Notes: generated from the letters alone by a model not told the origin. DNA of 64,000 nucleotides from an uncultured virus (IMG/VR IMGVR_UViG_3300042453_001906) (IMGVR_UViG_3300042453_001906); one strand, 5' to 3'. Shown: positions 47,005 through 58,304, numbered from the stretch's first letter. Made by a program: numbers and translations.

Positions 47005-47958
47005 TCAGTCTTCGCTTGCCAACTTCTCAAAGTACGACAGAGCGTCCTCATTGTCGTCATCGGACTGTACTGCCTGCTTCTGCTCCCGCTTTGGGGCAGG
47101 AGTGTCAGCCACCGCTGACTTCCGAACAGGTCGGGCAGGGGTTTCGTCCTCATCATCAAAAGAAGCGGCTTCTGCGCCACCCTTTGCAGCGGACTCGTTT
47201 ACGGAAGCACGAATATCTCCACCGAGAACTTCATGCAACCGCGCCTTCAATTCATCGTATGACTTGAAGTTCTTGGGATCGGTGAACTCCTTGAGCGCAT
47301 ACTGCTTCTTCCACAGTTCCTCAAGAGCCTTGTCATCACCACCCAAGAGGGCAGACGGTTCCGCGAACTCGCTGCGGTCATAGTTCACATACCCATCCAC
47401 CTGACGAATCTTCAACTTGAATTCAGCACCACCCCAAAAATCAAACGGATTCATGGGCTTCTCGTCCTGATACTCAGGGTTCATGGCACTCTGAATCTTC
47501 TCGAAAATCTTCTTGCCGTAACGGAACAGGAAAACCTTGCCTTCGTTCTCTGGGTTCTTCGGATCACTCACGACAAGAATATTGCTGACATACGAGAGGC
47601 GACGCTTGCGGTCACGCGCCAACTTCTTGTCGTCATCGCTGCCGCTGTTCCACAACTGCGAATTCAGTTCGGAAACTGGATCCTTCAGACCAATGGTGGT
47701 AAGCGAGTTTTCGATGTACCATCCACCCGGACCGCGGAAACCGTGATTCCACACCCGTGCCCACGGCAGGTCTTCACCTTCAACCGCAGGAAGAAAACGG
47801 ATGACTGCGTAGCCGTTTGAGGTCTTGTCTAGGGTAGGCTTCCAAAAACGGTCGTCCTTGTAAGACTCTGAACGCTTGTTCAGTTTCTCCATTTCAGCCG
47901 CGAGGGACTGATACGAGGTGGGCGACTTGGAACGATTCTTCATGTCCTTGAAACTCAT
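47005..47958 (-). CDS. gp32: Single-stranded DNA-binding protein
   Basis: DDRFWKP, GYAVIRFLPA, WYIENSLTTIG, GKKIFEKI, NYDRSEF, acidic tail SYFEKLA. Confidence 0.98.
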   Translation of the reverse strand: MSFKDMKNRSKSPTSYQSLAAEMEKLNKRSESYKDDRFWKPTLDKTSNGYAVIRFLPAVEGEDLPWARVWNHGFRGPGGWYIENSLTTIGLKDPVSELNSQLWNSGSDDDKKLARDRKRRLSYVSNILVVSDPKNPENEGKVFLFRYGKKIFEKIQSAMNPEYQDEKPMNPFDFWGGAEFKLKIRQVDGYVNYDRSEFAEPSALLGGDDKALEELWKKQYALKEFTDPKNFKSYDELKARLHEVLGGDIRASVNESAAKGGAEAASFDDEDETPARPVRKSAVADTPAPKREQKQAVQSDDDNEDALSYFEKLASED

Positions 47959-48064: not shown

Positions 48065-48301
48065 TCAAATTGGTAGTTTTGTCTTCTTGGGAAGCAGATT
48101 CAGGTCTTGCCCCTCGGCGCGAATCTTCTCAATAATTGGCTTGTTTAAGAATTTCGCTGCCACTTGTGGCTCTATGCCGTAGCGTTCGCAAACAGCGATC
48201 ACCGAATCAATATACGAAACACTGTACTTTTTTGCGTGGGCTTCCACTTCTTTTGGAAACCGTATGTTGTTTACTTCCATCGGTAGCCTTTCTTCGCTCA
48301 T
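48065..48301 (-). CDS. gp33: Late promoter transcription co-activator
   Basis: SYIDSVIAVCE..IEP..AKFLNKPIIEKIRAEG..LNLL..KLPI. Confidence 0.88.
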   Translation of the reverse strand: MSEERLPMEVNNIRFPKEVEAHAKKYSVSYIDSVIAVCERYGIEPQVAAKFLNKPIIEKIRAEGQDLNLLPKKTKLPI

Positions 48302-48620: not shown

Positions 48621-48692
48621 AGCCGCCTATCGGATTTGAACCGATGACCTGTTGATTACAAATCAACTGCACTACCGCTGTGCTAAGACGGC
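48621..48692 (-). tRNA. trnT: tRNA-Thr(UGU)
   Basis: Cloverleaf; anticodon arm GTTGA-TT-TGT-AA-TCAAC; GGTTCAAATCC. Confidence 0.95.
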
Positions 48693-48695
48693 GAA

Positions 48696-48777
48696 TGGGA
48701 GCGGAGGGATTCGAACCCCCGTAGCCAATGGCAGCAAATTTACAGTCTGCCCTCGTTGTCCACTTGAGTACACTCCC
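48696..48777 (-). tRNA. trnY: tRNA-Tyr(GUA)
   Basis: GCAGA-CT-GTA-AA-TTTGC, long variable arm, GGTTCGAATCC. Confidence 0.93.
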
Positions 48778-48779
48778 CA

Positions 48780-48850
48780 TTCACCCGCTTGGATTCGAAC
48801 CAAGACAAGGAGGACCAAAATCTCCGGTGCTACCGTTACACCACGGGTGA
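48780..48850 (-). tRNA. trnQ: tRNA-Gln(UUG)
   Basis: Acceptor TCACCCG/CGGGTGA; GGAGA-TT-TTG-GT-CCTCC. Confidence 0.92.
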
Positions 48851-48851
48851 A

Positions 48852-48923
48852 CTGACTCGGAAGGATTCGAACCTTCAACCGATCCGTTAACAGCGGATTG
48901 CACTACCGTTGTGCTACGAGTCA
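48852..48923 (-). tRNA. trnN: tRNA-Asn(GUU)
   Basis: Acceptor TGACTCG/CGAGTCA; ATCCG-CT-GTT-AA-CGGAT. Confidence 0.95.
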
Positions 48924-48926
48924 AAA

Positions 48927-49007
48927 AGCGTAGTGAGGGGCTTGCACCCATGCTCAATCACCGTTTGCAACCAGTGATCCTAGTCAGCGTCACACACTGA
49001 ACTACGC
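48927..49007 (-). tRNA. Non-canonical tRNA-Cys(GCA)-like RNA
   Basis: Acceptor GCGTAGT/ACTACGC plus U discriminator; TT-GCA-AA in the anticodon-position loop; atypical D and T arms. Confidence 0.55.
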
Positions 49008-49262
49008 AAAAAAAGTGGCGGCTTTTGGATGGAGCCGCCGAACCATTCAGACGAGTGCTGTGTGCCACGGTACTCTGAGTCCACCGCTGCAAGAAGCCCA
49101 ATCTTCTCTTGCATTCCGCGCATATCTTGTGTCCTTAAGGACACAAGTACCGTTGGTTTTTCCTGCGTTTGTTGGTGATCAGCCGACCGTGATCATCGGT
49201 GCAGGAGGGATAGGCGCAATTAACAATATAAGTGTCAGTTTTTACTATGGTTCATGGTAAAT
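49008..49262. ncRNA. Unidentified multi-hairpin structured non-coding element inside the tRNA cluster
   Basis: At least six inverted repeats in ~250 nt and no credible ORF; strand uncertain. Confidence 0.6.
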
Positions 49263-49268
49263 CCTTAA

Positions 49269-49341
49269 TGAGCCTACGGGGATTCGAACCCCGGTCAAGG
49301 GCTTGAAAGGCCCCTATCCTAAACCGCTAGACGATAGGCCC
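49269..49341 (-). tRNA. trnE: tRNA-Glu(UUC)
   Basis: GGGGC-CT-TTC-AA-GCCCT; GGTTCGAATCC. Confidence 0.95.
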
Positions 49342-49347
49342 GTTGGT

Positions 49348-49686
49348 TCAGTACGGATAGCCGTACTGACCGTAGTTTGGAACAACCACCGGAACTGGAA
49401 CAGTGGGCAGGACAGGAGGCATTCCTCCGTAGCCGCCGCCGTAAAACGGCATACCCATGCCGCCGTACATTCCGTAACCACCGTAACCAAAGCCGTAGTC
49501 GCGGACATGGACGGACTGCTCGGAAGTACCCGTAAAGTTCGGATTGTAGTTGTATCCGTTGCTCTTGTTTTCGTAAATCTCCGTGGAACCATTCGCGTGT
49601 TTCACCGTTCGGGTGATGTTGGTCTGCGTGTAGCAGCCACACAGGAGGACGGAAGCAGAAGAAAGAACGAGCGCAGCAGAACGCAT
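49348..49686 (-). CDS. Gly/Tyr/Pro-rich putative lipoprotein
   Basis: Signal peptide with lipobox-like LLCG-C; GYGG repeats; GGAG RBS. Confidence 0.7.
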   Translation of the reverse strand: MRSAALVLSSASVLLCGCYTQTNITRTVKHANGSTEIYENKSNGYNYNPNFTGTSEQSVHVRDYGFGYGGYGMYGGMGMPFYGGGYGGMPPVLPTVPVPVVVPNYGQYGYPY

Positions 49687-49705: not shown

Positions 49706-50107
49706 TTAGCGAATGATGAACTGACCGTTGCACACCGGGTAGACAGGGACAGCGCACCCGCCGTAATACGGCATCACGACTGCGGGGTAGTACGGTGCGC
49801 CGTAGCATCGCGTAAACGGCGAGTACACAGGCACACAGGGAGCAGCCCCGTATCCATAGCCGCCGTAGCCGTAGCCACCGCCGTAGCCGTAGCCACTGAC
49901 GGCATTCATGCCGATGCTGCCACCGATGGAGGTGTTGCTGATGGACGCGGACTTGCCGTTCGGGCCGGTAACCGTGGTCTTGCTGTACGAGCCACCAAAG
50001 TTCACGCCGATACCACTGCCACCATAGCCGTATTGGGCATGGGCAGAAGCCGTGAACAGTGTGGAAGCGGCAAGAACGGCAGATGAAACGAGTGTCTTCA
50101 GTAGCAT
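49706..50107 (-). CDS. Gly/Tyr-rich exported protein
   Basis: Sec signal peptide ending AHA-Q; GYGYGG repeats; Cys/Pro/Tyr tail. Confidence 0.72.
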   Translation of the reverse strand: MLLKTLVSSAVLAASTLFTASAHAQYGYGGSGIGVNFGGSYSKTTVTGPNGKSASISNTSIGGSIGMNAVSGYGYGGGYGYGGYGYGAAPCVPVYSPFTRCYGAPYYPAVVMPYYGGCAVPVYPVCNGQFIIR

Positions 50108-50316: not shown

Positions 50317-51165
50317 TCAGTCAGCAAAATCCTCGTAGATTGTGATCCACTTGGGTTCTTCGCCACGGCGGAGGTACGCAGCCTTGGCAAAATTCCACTC
50401 TTCTCGTTCTTGCATCTTGTAACCCGAGCGGTGCTTCTTGGCATAACGCTGTGCAGCGTCTTGGTCGTCAAAATACTCGTAGTTGCCTTCCGAATCCATT
50501 GCTCCGAAAAGACCACTGGAAGTCTTCCACACATCACCGGGCTTGTGCTTTTGTGCAGAAGTAGCAGACTCACCGGACTTTTCCTGTGATTCACTGCCTT
50601 GCTGTGGTTCATCCTTCACATTGAACACGAACTTGGTGTCCTTGTGTGCGCCTTTACGCAATTGAGAGAAGAACTGCACTACCTTGTGCTTTGCAAGTTC
50701 AAGGTTGTTTTGTCCTTCACCCTTCTTGAATCGCATAAGAACCTTTCCGATTCCTGCCGATTCATTGGTTCCAATGTAGTAAAAGTCTTCGTTGTTTTTG
50801 TACATCACTGAGTGCTGCTTGTAATGCCGACCCAACTGCACAATTTCAGACTTTTTGATGTTCGGTATGAGCAAACTGAGTTCTTCAACCACGCCGCCCT
50901 CTTCTTGGTAGCCGCCGCGTAGTTCAATATATCCGTAACCCATCGAACGAACCTTCTTTTTGAGGTCGTCATGGAGTTTTTTGTTCTGCTCACGCGAATT
51001 TTCGCCACGGAAAGCGGAAACAATGCCAAAATCCTTCTCATCGTCTTCCACATACTGAAAAACGCGAGACAATTTGGCCTCAACGAGGGGCGTTTCGGTG
51101 ACTTCCGAGCGAGAAATCCACTCGTTTAGTCCCTGACGATCAAGATATTGAGAGAATTTCTTCAT
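50317..51165 (-). CDS. Hypothetical protein, candidate internal head protein
   Basis: N-terminus MKKFSQYL resembles T4-type capsid-targeting sequences; late-promoter motif at 51196-51202. Confidence 0.6.
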   Translation of the reverse strand: MKKFSQYLDRQGLNEWISRSEVTETPLVEAKLSRVFQYVEDDEKDFGIVSAFRGENSREQNKKLHDDLKKKVRSMGYGYIELRGGYQEEGGVVEELSLLIPNIKKSEIVQLGRHYKQHSVMYKNNEDFYYIGTNESAGIGKVLMRFKKGEGQNNLELAKHKVVQFFSQLRKGAHKDTKFVFNVKDEPQQGSESQEKSGESATSAQKHKPGDVWKTSSGLFGAMDSEGNYEYFDDQDAAQRYAKKHRSGYKMQEREEWNFAKAAYLRRGEEPKWITIYEDFAD

Positions 51166-52901: not shown

Positions 52902-52926
52902 ATGTGTCTCCTAGTTTTATATTTAG

Positions 52927-52999
52927 TGCCTTCGGTGGGAGTCGAACCCACAACCAATTGATTAAAAGTCAACTGCGCTGCCAATTGCGCTACGAAGGC
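52927..52999 (-). tRNA. trnK: tRNA-Lys(UUU)
   Basis: GCCTTCG/CGAAGGC acceptor; GTTGA-CT-TTT-AA-TCAAT. Confidence 0.95.
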
Positions 53000-53506: not shown

Positions 53507-53761
53507 TTATCCCCTGAACAGGTACTTGAGTCTCTGCCAAAAATTCATTCCTGTTGGAAATTCTAAAACACCTTTTCTCATGCTCTCTCCCCATCCACAC
53601 GAATCTGTTTCACGCATGTGTTTCAACATGTGTGCCGGGGGAAATCGGTCGCTCACTTCACGCCAAGCATGGCATTCCTTGCCAAGAACGAAAAGTTGAT
53701 CCAACAATTTCTGTTGGTATGCTATATGCTGTTCTCGGCAGTCTTTATCGCATGGGCACAT
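53507..53761 (-). CDS. Hypothetical protein
   Basis: TAATG coupling to the guaC stop; C-terminal MNFWQRLKYLF amphipathic motif. Confidence 0.55.
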   Translation of the reverse strand: MCPCDKDCREQHIAYQQKLLDQLFVLGKECHAWREVSDRFPPAHMLKHMRETDSCGWGESMRKGVLEFPTGMNFWQRLKYLFRG

Positions 53762-54822
53762 TATCCGTTCCCCCAAACCGTGTTCAGTTGACGGTTAACA
53801 CGAACAAATGTGGTACACTTGGGCAAGTCCTTCAGTCGCCGCGCTCCCACATAAGTGCAAGCCGACCGCAGACCACCAGTAATTTCACGAACCGTTTCTG
53901 CTATAGGGCCGGTGAGCGGAACTCCCACAATCTTGCCCTCAGAAGCACGGTGCTTTGCGATTCCACCGGAGTACTTGTTCATGGCAGCGCACGAACTCAT
54001 TCCGTAAAATTGCTTTCGATCACCAATCACCTCTCCCTCTGCTTCATCCGCCCCCGCAAACATCCCGCCAAGCATCACGAAATCTGCTCCTGCACCGAAT
54101 GCCTTTGCAACATCGCCGGGGCATGTGCAGCCACCGTCACCGATCACATATCCACCCAACCCATGTGCTGCATCGGCACACTCCGCGATAGCAGACAATT
54201 GAGGATATCCAACTCCCGCAACCCGGCGGGTGGTGCAAACCGATCCGGGCCCAATCCCCACCTTCACGATGTTGGCTCCCGCAAGTAGCAGGGCTTCTGT
54301 CATTTCTCGGGTAACCACATTTCCTGCAATAAGCACATGATTGGGAAACAGTCCACGAATGGTCTTGACATATTCCGCAAATCGCTCTGTGTAGCCGTTT
54401 GCCACATCAAGGCAAATGAAGTTCACTCCGGGACACGCGCTCAATACTCGCTGTGCCTTTTCCACTTCTTGGTACTGCGAGTTTCCGTCACTTCCCATTC
54501 CCATCGTGTACACAAGGTGATTCACAGAGATGCCATTGATAAAAAACCTGTTGTAGTTTTCCGCCCACTGCTCCACGGAATAGTGCTTGTGAATTGCCAC
54601 CATGCCACCCAATGGGATAAGTTGTTCGGCAATGCGAAATGTACCAACGGTGTCCATGTTCGCAGACATGATGGGCACACACGAAAAAGATGCGTTGCCG
54701 TCACGCAACCTGAACTTGAACTCACGCTCAAGGGAAACCTCACTGCGCGACTTCATGCTGCTCCGCTTTGGGCGGATCAGTACATCGGAAAAATCCAACT
54801 TGGTGTCTTCTTCGATTCGCAT
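53761..54822 (-). CDS. guaC: GMP reductase
   Basis: [74 protein letters not shown]. Confidence 0.96.
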
Positions 54823-54839: not shown

Positions 54840-54911
54840 TGCGGGTTGGGAGAATCGAACTCCCGTGACGGGTTTGGAAAACCCGCGTAATAGCCTCTAT
54901 ACGAAACCCGC
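54840..54911 (-). tRNA. trnG: tRNA-Gly(UCC)
   Basis: GCGGGTT/AACCCGC acceptor; CGGGT-TT-TCC-AA-ACCCG. Confidence 0.93.
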
Positions 54912-56584: not shown

Positions 56585-56613
56585 GCACTTTCCTCCAGTC
56601 TCCTATTTAGACC

Positions 56614-56641
56614 AAAAGGAAAAAGGAGCCTTGCGGCTCCT
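56614..56641 (-). terminator. Terminator of the tmRNA transcript
   Basis: AGGAGCC-GCAA-GGCTCCT followed by TTTTCCTTTT. Confidence 0.85.
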
Positions 56642-56644
56642 CTT

Positions 56645-56965
56645 TCTGCCCGTTCAGATGCGGGAGGGCTTTCCCCACGGCTTCAAGCCGCCATTGCCAG
56701 TCTGTTGGCAATTATGGTTGCAACAGGTTTTTTAACGAGGCTCTGTAACCCGCCCCGGATGCCTCTTGCTTCTCTAATCCGCGCTAGTCGATTCCATTTC
56801 GACCCCGTGTCCCGGAGGCTAGCACTCCGGGGGTTGCCCCGCTGCACCGGGGACTTGACTCGCCGTCCCCGAAAACTTGCAGTAGCAATCAGGTTAGGCT
56901 AATGGAGTCGGGGGGATTCGAACCCCCGTGCTATTCGCGTTTCGATCCACCGTCAACAGCATCAC
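56645..56965 (-). ncRNA. ssrA: Circularly permuted (two-piece) tmRNA: acceptor piece ~56965-56903, intervening segment 56902-56807, coding piece 56806-~56645
   Basis: 5' end GGGGTCGAAATGGAATCGAC; 3' end GGGGGTTCGAATCCCCC-CGACTCC-A with G3.U70; ATAATT then GCC AAC AGA CTG GCA ATG GCG GCT TGA (tag ANRLAMAA, 56709-56683). Confidence 0.9.
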
Positions 56966-57179
56966 TGTATCTATTCAATTCAGTGCCCCAACCACTCTCA
57001 CGGATGCTTTCTTCCCACCGTTCCCGAATGTCTGCGGGGAACGGGTAGTGCTTGCACACTTGCCGGGCCCTTAGACGAATGCTACGGGGCACTCGGGGAG
57101 TCTTTTTAGGATCAAGCAGGTCGTACAAAAAGTTTCGGGTTGCAATCAGCGCGTGTAGTTCTTCATGCGGAAGGGTCAT
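56931..57179 (-). CDS. BPSL0761-like small protein
   Basis: MTLPHE...FLYDLLDPKKTPRVP..IR..A...KHYP pattern; AAGGA RBS. Confidence 0.7.
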   Translation of the reverse strand: MTLPHEELHALIATRNFLYDLLDPKKTPRVPRSIRLRARQVCKHYPFPADIRERWEESIRESGWGTELNRYSDAVDGGSKRE

Positions 57180-58101: not shown

Positions 58102-58115
58102 GGTAACCTTTCGAA

Positions 58116-58186
58116 TAGGCGGTTCAGGTGTCGATCCTGAATGAATCGGGTATAAGCCGATCTGCGAAGCCGTCCGCCCACCGCCC
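58116..58186 (-). tRNA. trnI: tRNA-Ile(UAU), atypical
   Basis: GGGCGGT/ACCGCCT acceptor plus A; ATCGG-CT-TAT-AC-CCGAT; T-arm TCAGG-ATCGACA-CCTGA. Confidence 0.8.
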
Positions 58187-58304
58187 AGTGGTCTGCTCTA
58201 GTATAGACTCATTTAGACATCCATGCTAGGGCAGAAGTCGCGTTTTTCATTATTTGATGCAGAAAGTCAGGGACCGCGACTTAAACCTTTTTTCTGCGGA
58301 ATTC

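What the first reader, a model, noticed from the sequence alone, without database searches (positions are those of the whole stretch)
49008..49262. ~250-nt structured non-coding element in the tRNA operon with a strand paradox
Seen (plus coordinates): stems 49017-49025/49031-49039, 49053-49062/49066-49075, 49088-49093/49108-49113, a perfect 22-bp palindrome 49126-49147, a long stem 49161-49206, 49241-49249/49253-49261, and end-to-end complementarity GAACCAT (49040-49046)/ATGGTTC (49247-49253). The flanking tRNAs and a terminal hairpin plus U7 imply minus-strand transcription. However, about nine non-Watson-Crick positions in the local stems are G.U on the plus strand and A.C on the minus strand, the opposite of neighbouring tRNAs and terminators. 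Inference: an unrecognised large ncRNA, an antisense RNA, or an element that folds as cDNA/ssDNA. I could not match it to a family from memory.
Basis: partly seen in the sequence, partly recalled or inferred. Interest (0 to 1): 0.8.

Follow-up and report, generated by a model that had tools for sequence, protein, structure and literature searches.

The report
New structured RNA beside phage tRNAs
A freshwater T4-like phage carries, inside its tRNA gene cluster, a conserved and highly folded RNA gene of about 210 bases that matches no described RNA family and whose job is still unknown.

Summary
The plus strand does fold better than the minus: z -4.1 against -1.9, with 15 against 7 G.U pairs.

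The window is a T4-like myovirus. I found 34 distinct homologues in lake viral and metagenome contigs. There were none in GenBank phages, Rfam or bacterial genomes.

Helices P2, P2a, P2b, P4 and the 3' hairpin covary. A core of about 45 nt never varies. P3, which holds the window's 22-bp palindrome, varies freely. No reading frame is conserved.

Every copy ends in a hairpin plus a run of 5-10 U on the minus strand. Each touches the next tRNA or tRNA-like gene (34 of 34). Contigs from three RNA libraries cover it, but give no strand.

Best reading: a minus-strand structured ncRNA made with the tRNA precursor, like T4 RNAC/RNAD by position but not by sequence. The strand paradox holds thermodynamically across the family. 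The minus-sense A.C positions all lie at helix ends. Function is unknown. A cis-acting attenuator of the tRNA genes is the main rival.

The parts
49008..49215 (-). Body of the structured ncRNA, from the invariant 5' GCC to the end of the U-run; 208 nt in the window, 188-257 nt in homologues
   Evidence: 34 distinct homologues; coordinates; RNA-library contigs at 49036-49210 and 49058-49199
49207..49215 (-). 5' GCCUAUCCC. The GCC is the proposed P1 5' strand, pairing with GGC at 49064-49066. The CCC is invariant.
   Evidence: RNAalifold pairs 24-26 with 226-228, GC/CG/CG in 19 of 19. All invariant, so no covariation test is possible.
49161..49206 (-). 5' domain: P2 (UCCUGC 49201-06 / GCAGGA 49161-66) enclosing hairpins P2a (49186-49200) and P2b (49174-49184)
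   Evidence: Changes on both sides at P2 positions 2-4, P2a position 4 (GC 12, CG 2, UA 2, AU 7, UG 1, AC 10) and the P2b loop-closing pair (GC 16, CG 12, AU 3, CA 3) among 34;
49116..49156 (-). P3, a variable arm closed by invariant CC/GG. In the window it holds the 22-bp palindrome 49126-49147. Homologues have a 7-bp UUCG hairpin here or a branched insert about 47 nt longer.
   Evidence: Alignments; palindrome; exact palindrome found in only one viral contig, a 4,335-bp fragment 99.7% identical to the window over the query stretch 48925-49268
49088..49113 (-). P4 hairpin (UGCAAGAG / CUUCUUGCA) whose loop holds an invariant GGG
   Evidence: 7 of 8 pairs change on both sides in 30 distinct sequences
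49047..49087 (-). Invariant core: P5 (RCGGUG / UACCGU), its loop CAGAG pairing with CUC..CUG downstream (proposed pseudoknot PK-A), and the P1 3' strand GGC
   Evidence: P5 and PK-A pairs never vary, except G.U 17 / A-U 13 at the first P5 pair. The structure is consistent but unproven.
49016..49047 (-). 3' module: AAUGG (49043-47) pairs with CCAU in the loop (49028-32) of the GC-rich hairpin 49016-49040, a proposed H-type pseudoknot (PK-B)
   Evidence: 3 of 7 hairpin pairs change on both sides. One compensating variant AACGG/CCG is seen in L174. The same module occurs alone after ORFs in two other phage contigs.
49008..49014 (-). U7 run, followed at once by the next gene
   Evidence: U-run of 5-10 in 34 of 34, each abutting a tRNA-like (22) or tRNA-Glu (12) gene
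49225..49266 (-). Upstream leader: AAGGA (49262-66), a 6-codon mini-ORF ATG..TGA (49235-49255) and the AT-rich box TATATT (49225-30), a possible -10 element
   Evidence: Coordinates. An ATG-led mini-ORF of 3-9 codons is seen in 31 of 34 homologues, by eye in the printout. The tool's scan called no sigma-70-like promoter on the minus strand.
48928..49007 (-). Adjacent tRNA-like gene: 7-bp acceptor-like stem, long anticodon-like stem with a UUGCAA loop, and a short T-like arm
   Evidence: 20 distinct homologues; 8 of 17 predicted pairs change on both sides; not called by ARAGORN or by the Rfam tRNA model
49269..49341 (-). tRNA-Glu(UUC) immediately upstream

Best explanation
Window 49215-49008 (minus strand) is the gene for a structured non-coding RNA of a new family. 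I found the family only in freshwater T4-like phages. It is transcribed in the same direction as the tRNAs, as part of the same polycistronic precursor. Its 3' end is a GC-rich hairpin, probably an H-type pseudoknot, plus a U-run that touches the 5' end of the next tRNA or tRNA-like gene. Intrinsic termination or RNase P cleavage would therefore leave the same protected 3' end. The molecule has a covarying 5' three-helix domain (P2, P2a, P2b), a freely variable arm (P3), a covarying hairpin (P4) and a never-varying core of about 45 nt (P5/PK-A) next to the 3' module. Inferred, not shown: the released RNA is stable and acts in trans through its invariant core by binding a conserved protein or RNA partner. 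T4's RNAC and RNAD, also encoded in a tRNA cluster and also of unknown role, are the nearest analogues. The plus strand folds better in nearest-neighbour models, probably because C-rich and A-rich unpaired stretches face each other at helix ends in the minus sense. These include loop residues that I propose pair in pseudoknots. Their complements can form G.U pairs.
For: Conservation: 34 distinct sequences from 80 loci around gp32 relatives and from pattern scans.

Structure: 96.9% of cells are paired against 92.0 +/- 0.4 in shuffles, and 10 pairs change on both sides against 6.5 +/- 1.0. For each of these two measures and for the covariation score, 0 of 500 shuffles reach the observed value. 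The covariation score is 0.219 against at most 0.100 for slid partners. The 5' domain covaries.

Not coding: 13 of 34 have a stop-free plus frame, but in different phases relative to the invariant core. The other 21 have stops in all three plus frames.

Strand:
- A U-run of 5-10 follows the hairpin in 34 of 34, with no room for a promoter before the next tRNA. Minus-strand transcription must therefore cross the element.
- Flanking genes and tRNAs are all on the minus strand.
- Wobble pairs inside helices are G.U in the minus sense at 4 positions. None is A.C.
- The 3' module stands in the sense orientation after ORFs in two other phages.

Expression: in 3 of 4 metatranscriptome runs laid, a contig at least 98% identical lies on the element. 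In these three, nothing lies on the neighbouring protein genes.

Analogy: T4 has two small RNAs of unknown role in its tRNA region (passages of PMC3014915; PMC9697503; annotation).
Against: - No strand-specific data: the RNA contigs give no strand, start or end.
- Thermodynamics favours the plus sense. Mean z is -2.03 against -1.11, and the plus sense is lower in 12 of 14. RNAalifold gives -12.67 against -10.67 for the 5' domain and -31.20 against -28.42 for the 3' domain.
- In the 5' domain, minus-sense A.C cells (39) far outnumber G.U cells (5).
- The core helices P1, P5 and PK-A never vary, so they are unproven.
- One RNA contig bridges the U-run into the tRNA-like gene (48947-49104). Termination is therefore at most partial, or the contig comes from DNA.
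- Close relatives (90% gp32 identity) carry a gene for a basic protein of about 55 aa in this slot instead, so the RNA is dispensable.
- Nothing bears directly on a trans-acting role. No complementary target was found in the 64-kb window.
Confidence: 0.6

Rival explanations
1. It is a cis-acting leader, either an attenuator or a riboswitch-like element. The invariant core senses a signal such as a metabolite, a tRNA or ribosome occupancy of the upstream mini-ORF. That signal sets how much transcription passes the hairpin and U-run into the tRNA genes.
For: - The element lies directly 5' of a tRNA or tRNA-like gene in 34 of 34, separated only by the U-run.
- The architecture resembles a riboswitch: covarying peripheral helices, one variable arm, and an invariant core 10-15 nt from a terminator-like hairpin.
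- A Shine-Dalgarno-like box and a 3-9 codon mini-ORF precede it in 31 of 34, read by eye.
- One RNA contig reads through the U-run.
Against: - I found no alternative (antiterminator) pairing that is conserved. The GCGGUG/CGCCGC complementarity fails in the window's own type and in the L053 group, read.
- The mini-ORF is missing in 3 of 34. Its stop codon lies 1 to 22 nt from the RNA body, so no fixed ribosome-to-structure distance exists.
- A relative without the element (L078) still has a similar hairpin and U-run just before the tRNA-like gene. The hairpin-tRNA junction therefore does not need the element.
- No ligand or gene association suggests a signal.
Confidence: 0.2
2. The selected fold belongs to the plus strand. 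On this reading it is an antisense RNA, or single-stranded DNA or cDNA.
For: - The plus sense has the lower z in 12 of 14 homologues and a lower RNAalifold energy in both domains.
- 56 minus-sense A.C cells at helix ends would be G.U on the plus strand.
- The invariant CCC/AAA flanking P2 and CC/AA in the 3' hairpin loop would extend plus-sense helices with G.U pairs.
Against: - There is no U-run after any plus-sense hairpin. The only promoter-like site on the plus strand (49220-49248) lies beyond the RNA body in that direction and reads away from it.
- All surrounding genes are on the minus strand.
- No reverse transcriptase was found in a complete relative or an 83%-complete one, nor among 33 window ORFs.
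- Wobble pairs inside helices, and the G.U/A-U alternations at P4 pair 8 (19/10) and P5 pair 1 (17/13), fit only the minus sense.
- The plus-sense stem 49053-75 is broken by uncompensated changes in several lineages.
Confidence: 0.08
3. It codes for a small protein, the 81-aa plus-strand ORF 49015-49260.
For: The ORF exists. A stop-free plus frame spans the whole element in 13 of 34 homologues.
Against: - The open frame is in phase 2 relative to the invariant core in some homologues and phase 1 in others, so the 'proteins' differ across the invariant part.
- 21 of 34 have stops in every plus frame.
- Length differences between types are not multiples of three (188, 208, 254 nt).
- No Shine-Dalgarno sequence precedes the GTG.
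- The core has no synonymous-type variation.
Confidence: 0.01

Closest known systems
Phage T4 RNAC (species 1) and RNAD (species 2)
   Same: Both are small non-coding RNAs encoded inside the tRNA gene cluster of a T4-type phage, on the tRNA strand and directly abutting a tRNA gene. Their roles are unknown (annotation; passages of PMC3014915 and PMC9697503).
   Different: There is no detectable similarity: the model of the 3' domain scores at most 5.6 bits (E 0.42) on the T4 tRNA region. The T4 RNAs are 139 and 119 nt and lie at the 3' end of the cluster. This RNA is 188-257 nt and lies before the tRNA(-like) gene that it touches: at the 5' end of the cluster in most homologues, and after a leading tRNA-Glu in the window and its closest kin.
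GOLLD and ROOL RNAs
   Same: These are large structured RNAs of unknown function with pseudoknots, often near tRNAs and in prophages (passage of PMC5737381).
   Different: Neither Rfam model matches even at E up to 10. They are far longer: ROOL averages 581 nt (passage of PMC5737381), and GOLLD is longer still from my recall; no call gave its length. This RNA is one third of ROOL's length or less, and I found it only in lytic T4-like phage contigs.
sRNAs derived from 3' UTRs that share the terminator of the upstream gene
   Same: The element sits between the stop codon of the upstream gene (or tRNA-Glu) and a hairpin plus U-run. A relative without the element has a similar hairpin straight after the upstream gene. 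The comparison class is recalled from general knowledge, not from a call.
   Different: Here the hairpin is followed at once by tRNA genes, so the 3' end may come from RNase P cleavage rather than termination. No seed or target pairing was found.
Terminator-type riboswitches and leader-peptide attenuators
   Same: A conserved folded leader is followed by a hairpin, a U-run and then the downstream genes, and a mini-ORF lies upstream.
   Different: The downstream genes are tRNAs, no ligand is implied, and no conserved antiterminator was found. Membership is not claimed.

Membership tests
Any Rfam 15 family (including GOLLD, ROOL, raiA, YrlA, tmRNA, T-box, known riboswitches and ribozymes) | Covariance-model match at or near the family's gathering score | tested here: not met
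   The whole window at gathering thresholds gives only 7 tRNAs and the permuted tmRNA. For 48880-49300 at E up to 10, the 4 matches all lie on the flanking tRNAs. In five relatives at E up to 1, all 22 matches lie on or overlap canonical tRNA genes or lie outside the element, and none lies on the element or the tRNA-like gene.
T4 RNAC/RNAD | Sequence or structure similarity to T4 rnaC or rnaD | tested here: not met
   cmsearch with R1 without filters on T4 68000-74000: best hit 5.6 bits, E 0.42, at another place. Only the 3' domain model was used.
T4 RNAC/RNAD | Encoded in the phage tRNA cluster on the tRNA strand, next to a tRNA | tested here: met
T4 RNAC/RNAD | Accumulates as a discrete stable RNA | tested here: inconclusive
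   Contigs from 3 of 4 RNA libraries cover it, but they give no strand or ends and DNA carry-over cannot be excluded.
Intrinsic (Rho-independent) terminator | GC-rich hairpin directly followed by a U-run on the transcribed strand | tested here: met
   A 7-bp GC-rich stem (8 with the flanking U-A pair, read) and U7 are in the window. A U-run of 5-10 is present in 34 of 34. Termination efficiency was not tested.
Retron msr/msd or other RT-templated RNA | A reverse transcriptase gene in the same genome | tested here: not met
   PF00078 gives 0 matches in a complete 147-kb relative that carries the element and in an 83%-complete one. There is no RT family among 33 window ORFs of 200 aa or more. 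The window's own whole genome is not held.
Retron msr/msd | Conserved flanking inverted repeats (a1/a2) | tested here: not met
   The window's 7-nt end-to-end complementarity is matched by 19-26% of shuffles, and its partner differs between homologues.
Terminator riboswitch or attenuator | Conserved alternative pairing that excludes the terminator | tested here: inconclusive
   None was found by inspecting. A blind scan for covarying column pairs was swamped by the relatedness of three clades.
Protein-coding gene | Reading frame conserved across homologues | tested here: not met
tRNA (for the neighbour at 48928-49007) | Recognised by ARAGORN or the Rfam tRNA model | tested here: not met
   It nevertheless has covarying acceptor-like, anticodon-like and T-like stems.

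The most novel reading that the evidence does not exclude
The element is a sensor that gates the phage's own tRNA supply. On this reading a riboswitch-like or put/EAR-like RNA, with its invariant pseudoknotted core and perhaps the upstream mini-ORF, decides whether RNA polymerase passes the hairpin and U-run into the tRNA genes. That would be the first regulatory leader known for a tRNA operon.
Probability: 0.12. Interest if true: 0.85.

Novelty: new variant of a known kind. Interest (0 to 1): 0.5.

Why it matters
T4's two tRNA-cluster RNAs, RNAC and RNAD, remain of unknown biological role (passages of PMC3014915 from 2010, and PMC9697503 from 2022). The 2010 review also says that no riboswitch or trans-acting regulatory RNA had been characterised from T4, and that related phages might supply candidates. 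This element is such a candidate. It is an unrelated, larger and well-conserved structured RNA at the same kind of place in uncultivated freshwater T4-like phages. It has an invariant core that points to a specific partner, and a neighbouring tRNA-like gene that standard tools miss. If it proves to control read-through into the tRNA genes, it would be a new kind of regulation. If it acts in trans, it is a handle on how large phages use RNA to manage translation or host defence. It also shows that an antisense strand can out-fold the real one, which matters for strand calls in RNA discovery.

Tried and rejected
- GenBank phages: blastn of 48925-49268 against 50,697 records gave no match. The wider query matched only through its tRNAs.
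- Own genome: not held. The nearest record, G001, is a 24-kb fragment without this region.
- Bacterial and archaeal genomes: the 20-base core pattern gave 2 hits in 185,579 species genomes. Both match only the pattern itself, at 7.8 bits.
- Chance matches in the pattern scans: 17 of 42 for the 15-mer in viral contigs and 1 of 31 in metagenome contigs (L151).
- Promoter: the consensus scan found none on the minus strand. TATAAATA is absent from the window. The box CTTATATTG is no more frequent than chance, 9 matches against 8.5 expected.
- Antisense targets: the reverse complements of the core and of the 5' end match only themselves in the window.
- End-to-end helix: not beyond chance.
- Blind covariation scan for extra helices or an antiterminator: uninformative because of clade structure.
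- MAFFT alignments put P2 and P4 out of register between clades. I used a covariance-model alignment for the 3' domain and a script with anchors for the 5' domain. The 5' domain was therefore not run through the count of structure pairs.
- Parts of the stretch without cover in the RNA runs are not used as evidence.
- R-scape, CMfinder and a pseudoknot-aware folder were not available.
- The search of earlier findings returned nothing.

Full report
**What the window is.** The 64-kb window encodes T4-type major capsid, portal, sheath, terminase and baseplate proteins. It also encodes a gp32-type single-strand DNA-binding protein at 47005-47958 and a gp33-like late transcription factor at 48065-48301. 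The gp32 protein is about 55% identical to those of T4-like cyanophages. DNA runs that hold the stretch are mostly lake and freshwater metagenomes. ARAGORN and Rfam find tRNA-Thr, Tyr, Gln, Asn (48621-48924) and Glu (49269-49341) on the minus strand. Further along they find three more tRNAs and a permuted tmRNA. The finding lies in the 344-nt gap between tRNA-Asn and tRNA-Glu.

**The observation.** The plus strand folds at -94.4 kcal/mol with z -4.14. The minus strand folds at -76.2 with z -1.87. The plus MFE contains 15 G.U pairs of 80 and the minus MFE 7 of 75. The observation, including the strand asymmetry, is confirmed for this sequence.

**Known families.**
- Rfam 15 gives nothing on the gap at gathering thresholds or at E up to 10.
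- Rfam also gives nothing on five divergent homologues at E up to 1.
- GenBank phages give no blastn match.
- The model of the 3' domain does not match the T4 tRNA region, where rnaC and rnaD are annotated.

**Homologues.**
- Loci around 80 gp32 relatives and four pattern scans gave 34 distinct full-length copies, 188-257 nt long from the invariant GCC to the U-run.
- All come from viral or metagenome contigs.
- A scan of 185,579 bacterial and archaeal genomes with the 20-base core pattern gave two hits that match nothing but the pattern.
- The element is single-copy in each of the two large viral records that carry it, one of them a complete 147-kb genome. The same pattern also occurs once in each of the two unrelated records that hold only the 3' module.
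- Relatives with 90% gp32 identity lack it. In the same slot between tRNA-Glu and tRNA-Ser or tRNA-Met they carry a gene for a basic protein of about 55 aa with a strong ribosome-binding site. The element is therefore accessory.

**Anatomy (minus sense; window coordinates).**
- 5' GCCUAUCCC lies at 49215-49207.
- P2 is UCCUGC/GCAGGA (49206-01 with 49166-61). It encloses P2a (ACCG..CGGU) and P2b.
- An A-rich linker follows.
- P3 (49156-49116) is closed by invariant CC/GG.
- P4 is UGCAAGAG/CUUCUUGCA (49113-49088), with GGG in its loop.
- P5 is GCGGUG/UACCGU (49087-49067). Its loop CAGAG can pair with CUC..CUG at 49055-49047 (PK-A).
- GGC at 49066-49064 can pair with the 5' GCC (P1).
- AAUGG (49047-43) can pair with CCAU (49032-29) in the loop of the GC-rich hairpin 49040-49016 (PK-B).
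- U7 lies at 49014-49008.

**Support for the fold.**
- On a covariance-model alignment of the 3' domain (30 distinct rows), 96.9% of cells pair, against 92.0 +/- 0.4 in shuffles.
- Ten pairs change on both sides, against 6.5 +/- 1.0. For cells paired, for pairs changed on both sides and for the covariation score, 0 of 500 shuffles reach the observed value.
- Partners slid by 1-3 columns give covariation scores of at most 0.100, against 0.219 observed.
- P4 has 7 of 8 pairs with double changes, and the 3' hairpin 3 of 7.
- In the 5' domain, analysed by script on 34 rows, P2 positions 2-4, the fourth pair of P2a (GC, CG, UA and AU all occur) and the loop-closing pair of P2b show double changes. 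RNAalifold on 19 sequences finds the same helices, and 9 of its 36 pairs have double changes.
- P1, P5 and PK-A never vary, so they remain proposals.
- PK-B has one compensating variant (AACGG with CCG in L174).
- The PK-B module recurs on its own, without a U-run, just after ORFs in two unrelated phage contigs, in the sense orientation.

**What is not conserved.**
- The window's 22-bp palindrome is lineage-specific in sequence. The exact palindrome occurs in only one viral contig, a 4,335-bp fragment that is 99.7% identical to the window over the query stretch 48925-49268, and the arm that holds it varies freely.
- The inner TGATCA/TGATCA part of the 'long stem' is absent from the long-type homologues.
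- Stem 49053-62/49066-75 is broken by uncompensated changes.
- The GAACCAT/ATGGTTC complementarity is matched by 19-26% of shuffles.

**Not coding.** A stop-free plus frame spans the element in 13 of 34. It is in a different phase relative to the invariant core in different lineages, and 21 of 34 have stops in every plus frame.

**Which strand?** This is the crux, and it is not fully closed.

For the plus sense:
- z is more negative in 12 of 14 homologues, with means of -2.03 against -1.11.
- RNAalifold energies are slightly lower in both domains.
- In the 5' domain, 39 cells are A.C in the minus sense against 5 G.U.

For the minus sense:
- The hairpin is followed by 5-10 U in 34 of 34 and then at once by a tRNA-like (22) or tRNA-Glu (12) gene. 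The tRNAs can therefore be transcribed only through the element.
- All neighbouring genes are on the minus strand with tiny gaps.
- In the 3' domain, 76 cells are G.U against 17 A.C.
- G.U alternates with A-U at P4 pair 8 (19/10) and P5 pair 1 (17/13).
- Wobble pairs inside helices are G.U at four positions and never A.C. All 56 A.C cells lie at helix ends.
- The plus strand has no terminator, and the only promoter-like site on it (49220-49248) lies beyond the RNA body in that direction and reads away from it.
- No reverse transcriptase was found.

My reading is inference. C-rich segments face A-rich linkers across helix ends: the CC of the hairpin loop, which I pair with AAUGG, and the invariant CCC, which may pair with the GGG of the P4 loop. 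Their complements form G.U pairs, so a nearest-neighbour model that ignores pseudoknots prefers the antisense strand. I put the minus strand at about 0.85.

**Expression.** Of four lake metatranscriptome runs laid, three have a contig on the element: 49058-49199, 49036-49210 and 48947-49104, with 1-3 differences. None of these three has a contig on the adjacent protein genes. The fourth run has one contig on the upstream gene. Contigs give no strand or ends, and DNA carry-over cannot be excluded. The third contig crosses the U-run into the tRNA-like gene, which fits read-through or a precursor.

**How it most likely works.**
- Shown: it is a conserved, folded, non-coding element in a minus-strand polycistronic unit, and its 3' hairpin and U-run touch the next tRNA.
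- Inferred: it is released from the tRNA precursor, or ended at its own hairpin, as a stable RNA with a protected 3' end. It then acts through its invariant core on a conserved partner.
- T4's RNAC and RNAD are the nearest analogues by place and by ignorance of function (passages). GOLLD and ROOL share the tRNA neighbourhood (passage).
- The main rival is a cis-acting attenuator of the tRNA genes. A put/EAR-like antiterminator reading is folded into the novel case. A Shine-Dalgarno-like box and a 3-9 codon mini-ORF precede the element in 31 of 34, including where tRNA-Glu rather than a gene lies upstream (by eye). Against this, the distance from the mini-ORF stop to the RNA body varies from 1 to 22 nt, three homologues lack the mini-ORF, and I found no conserved antiterminator.

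**Limits.**
- No isolate, no stranded reads, no R-scape.
- The core fold is unproven.
- The promoter is only a guess: the AT-rich box at 49225-30.
- Papers were seen as search listings and passages only. The T4 genome review was not held.
- A claim that the family is not in print rests on Rfam and on four literature searches that were not sequence-based.

Noticed in passing
window 48928-49007 (-): A tRNA-like gene lies directly after the U-run. It has a 7-bp acceptor-like stem, a 7-8 bp anticodon-like stem with a UUGCAA loop and a short T-like arm (loop UGCAAG). There are 20 distinct homologues of 80-104 nt, and 8 of 17 predicted pairs change on both sides. ARAGORN and the Rfam tRNA model miss it. 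One variant (L174) has a loop that would read UU-CUA-GA, an amber-type anticodon (by eye).
   Followed up: partly
window 49235-49266 (-): An AAGGA box and a 6-codon mini-ORF (M-N-H-S-K-N) lie between tRNA-Glu and the RNA body. Similar 3-9 codon mini-ORFs rich in Asn, Thr, Ser, His and Tyr codons precede 31 of 34 homologues (by eye). They may be a leader peptide or a by-product of AT-rich sequence.
   Followed up: partly
L127 (about 450-482) and L134 (about 450-482); L186 about 1501-1525: The 33-nt 3' module (AAAUGGUUUGGCGGCUCCAUUCAAAAACCGCC) occurs nearly unchanged but without a U-run. It sits just after the stop codon of an ORF in two other phage contigs, one a complete 44.5-kb genome, once per record.
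   Followed up: partly
L006 1455-1645, L013 1227-1418, L016, L017, L018, L019: In relatives with 90% gp32 identity, the slot after tRNA-Glu holds a gene for a basic protein of about 55 aa (MVNKYRELNRRRKRK...) with a strong ribosome-binding site, instead of the RNA.
   Followed up: no
window 56592-56994 (-): This is a phage-borne permuted (two-piece type) tmRNA with tag ANRLAMAA (ARAGORN; Rfam RF04321 at 68.9 bits).
   Followed up: no
window 49348-49686 and 49706-50107 (-): Two small Gly/Tyr-rich proteins with signal or lipoprotein-like N-termini lie just upstream of tRNA-Glu. Neither has a PHROG match.
   Followed up: no
window 52926-52999, 54840-54911, 58115-58187 (-): Single tRNA genes (Lys, Gly, Ile) are wedged between protein genes with only a few bases on each side and no hairpin or U-run. 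tRNAs in this phage are therefore cut out of long mixed transcripts.
   Followed up: partly
window 53761-54822 (-) and 50317-51165 (-): The phage encodes an IMP dehydrogenase/GMP reductase-family protein and a protein with an S-adenosylmethionine-lyase-like domain.
   Followed up: no
window 49176-49181 and 49190-49195: Two TGATCA palindromes, which are also GATC sites, form the loops of P2a and P2b in the window's lineage. Other lineages have TGTACA or non-palindromic loops. A loop-loop kiss is possible but untested.
   Followed up: no
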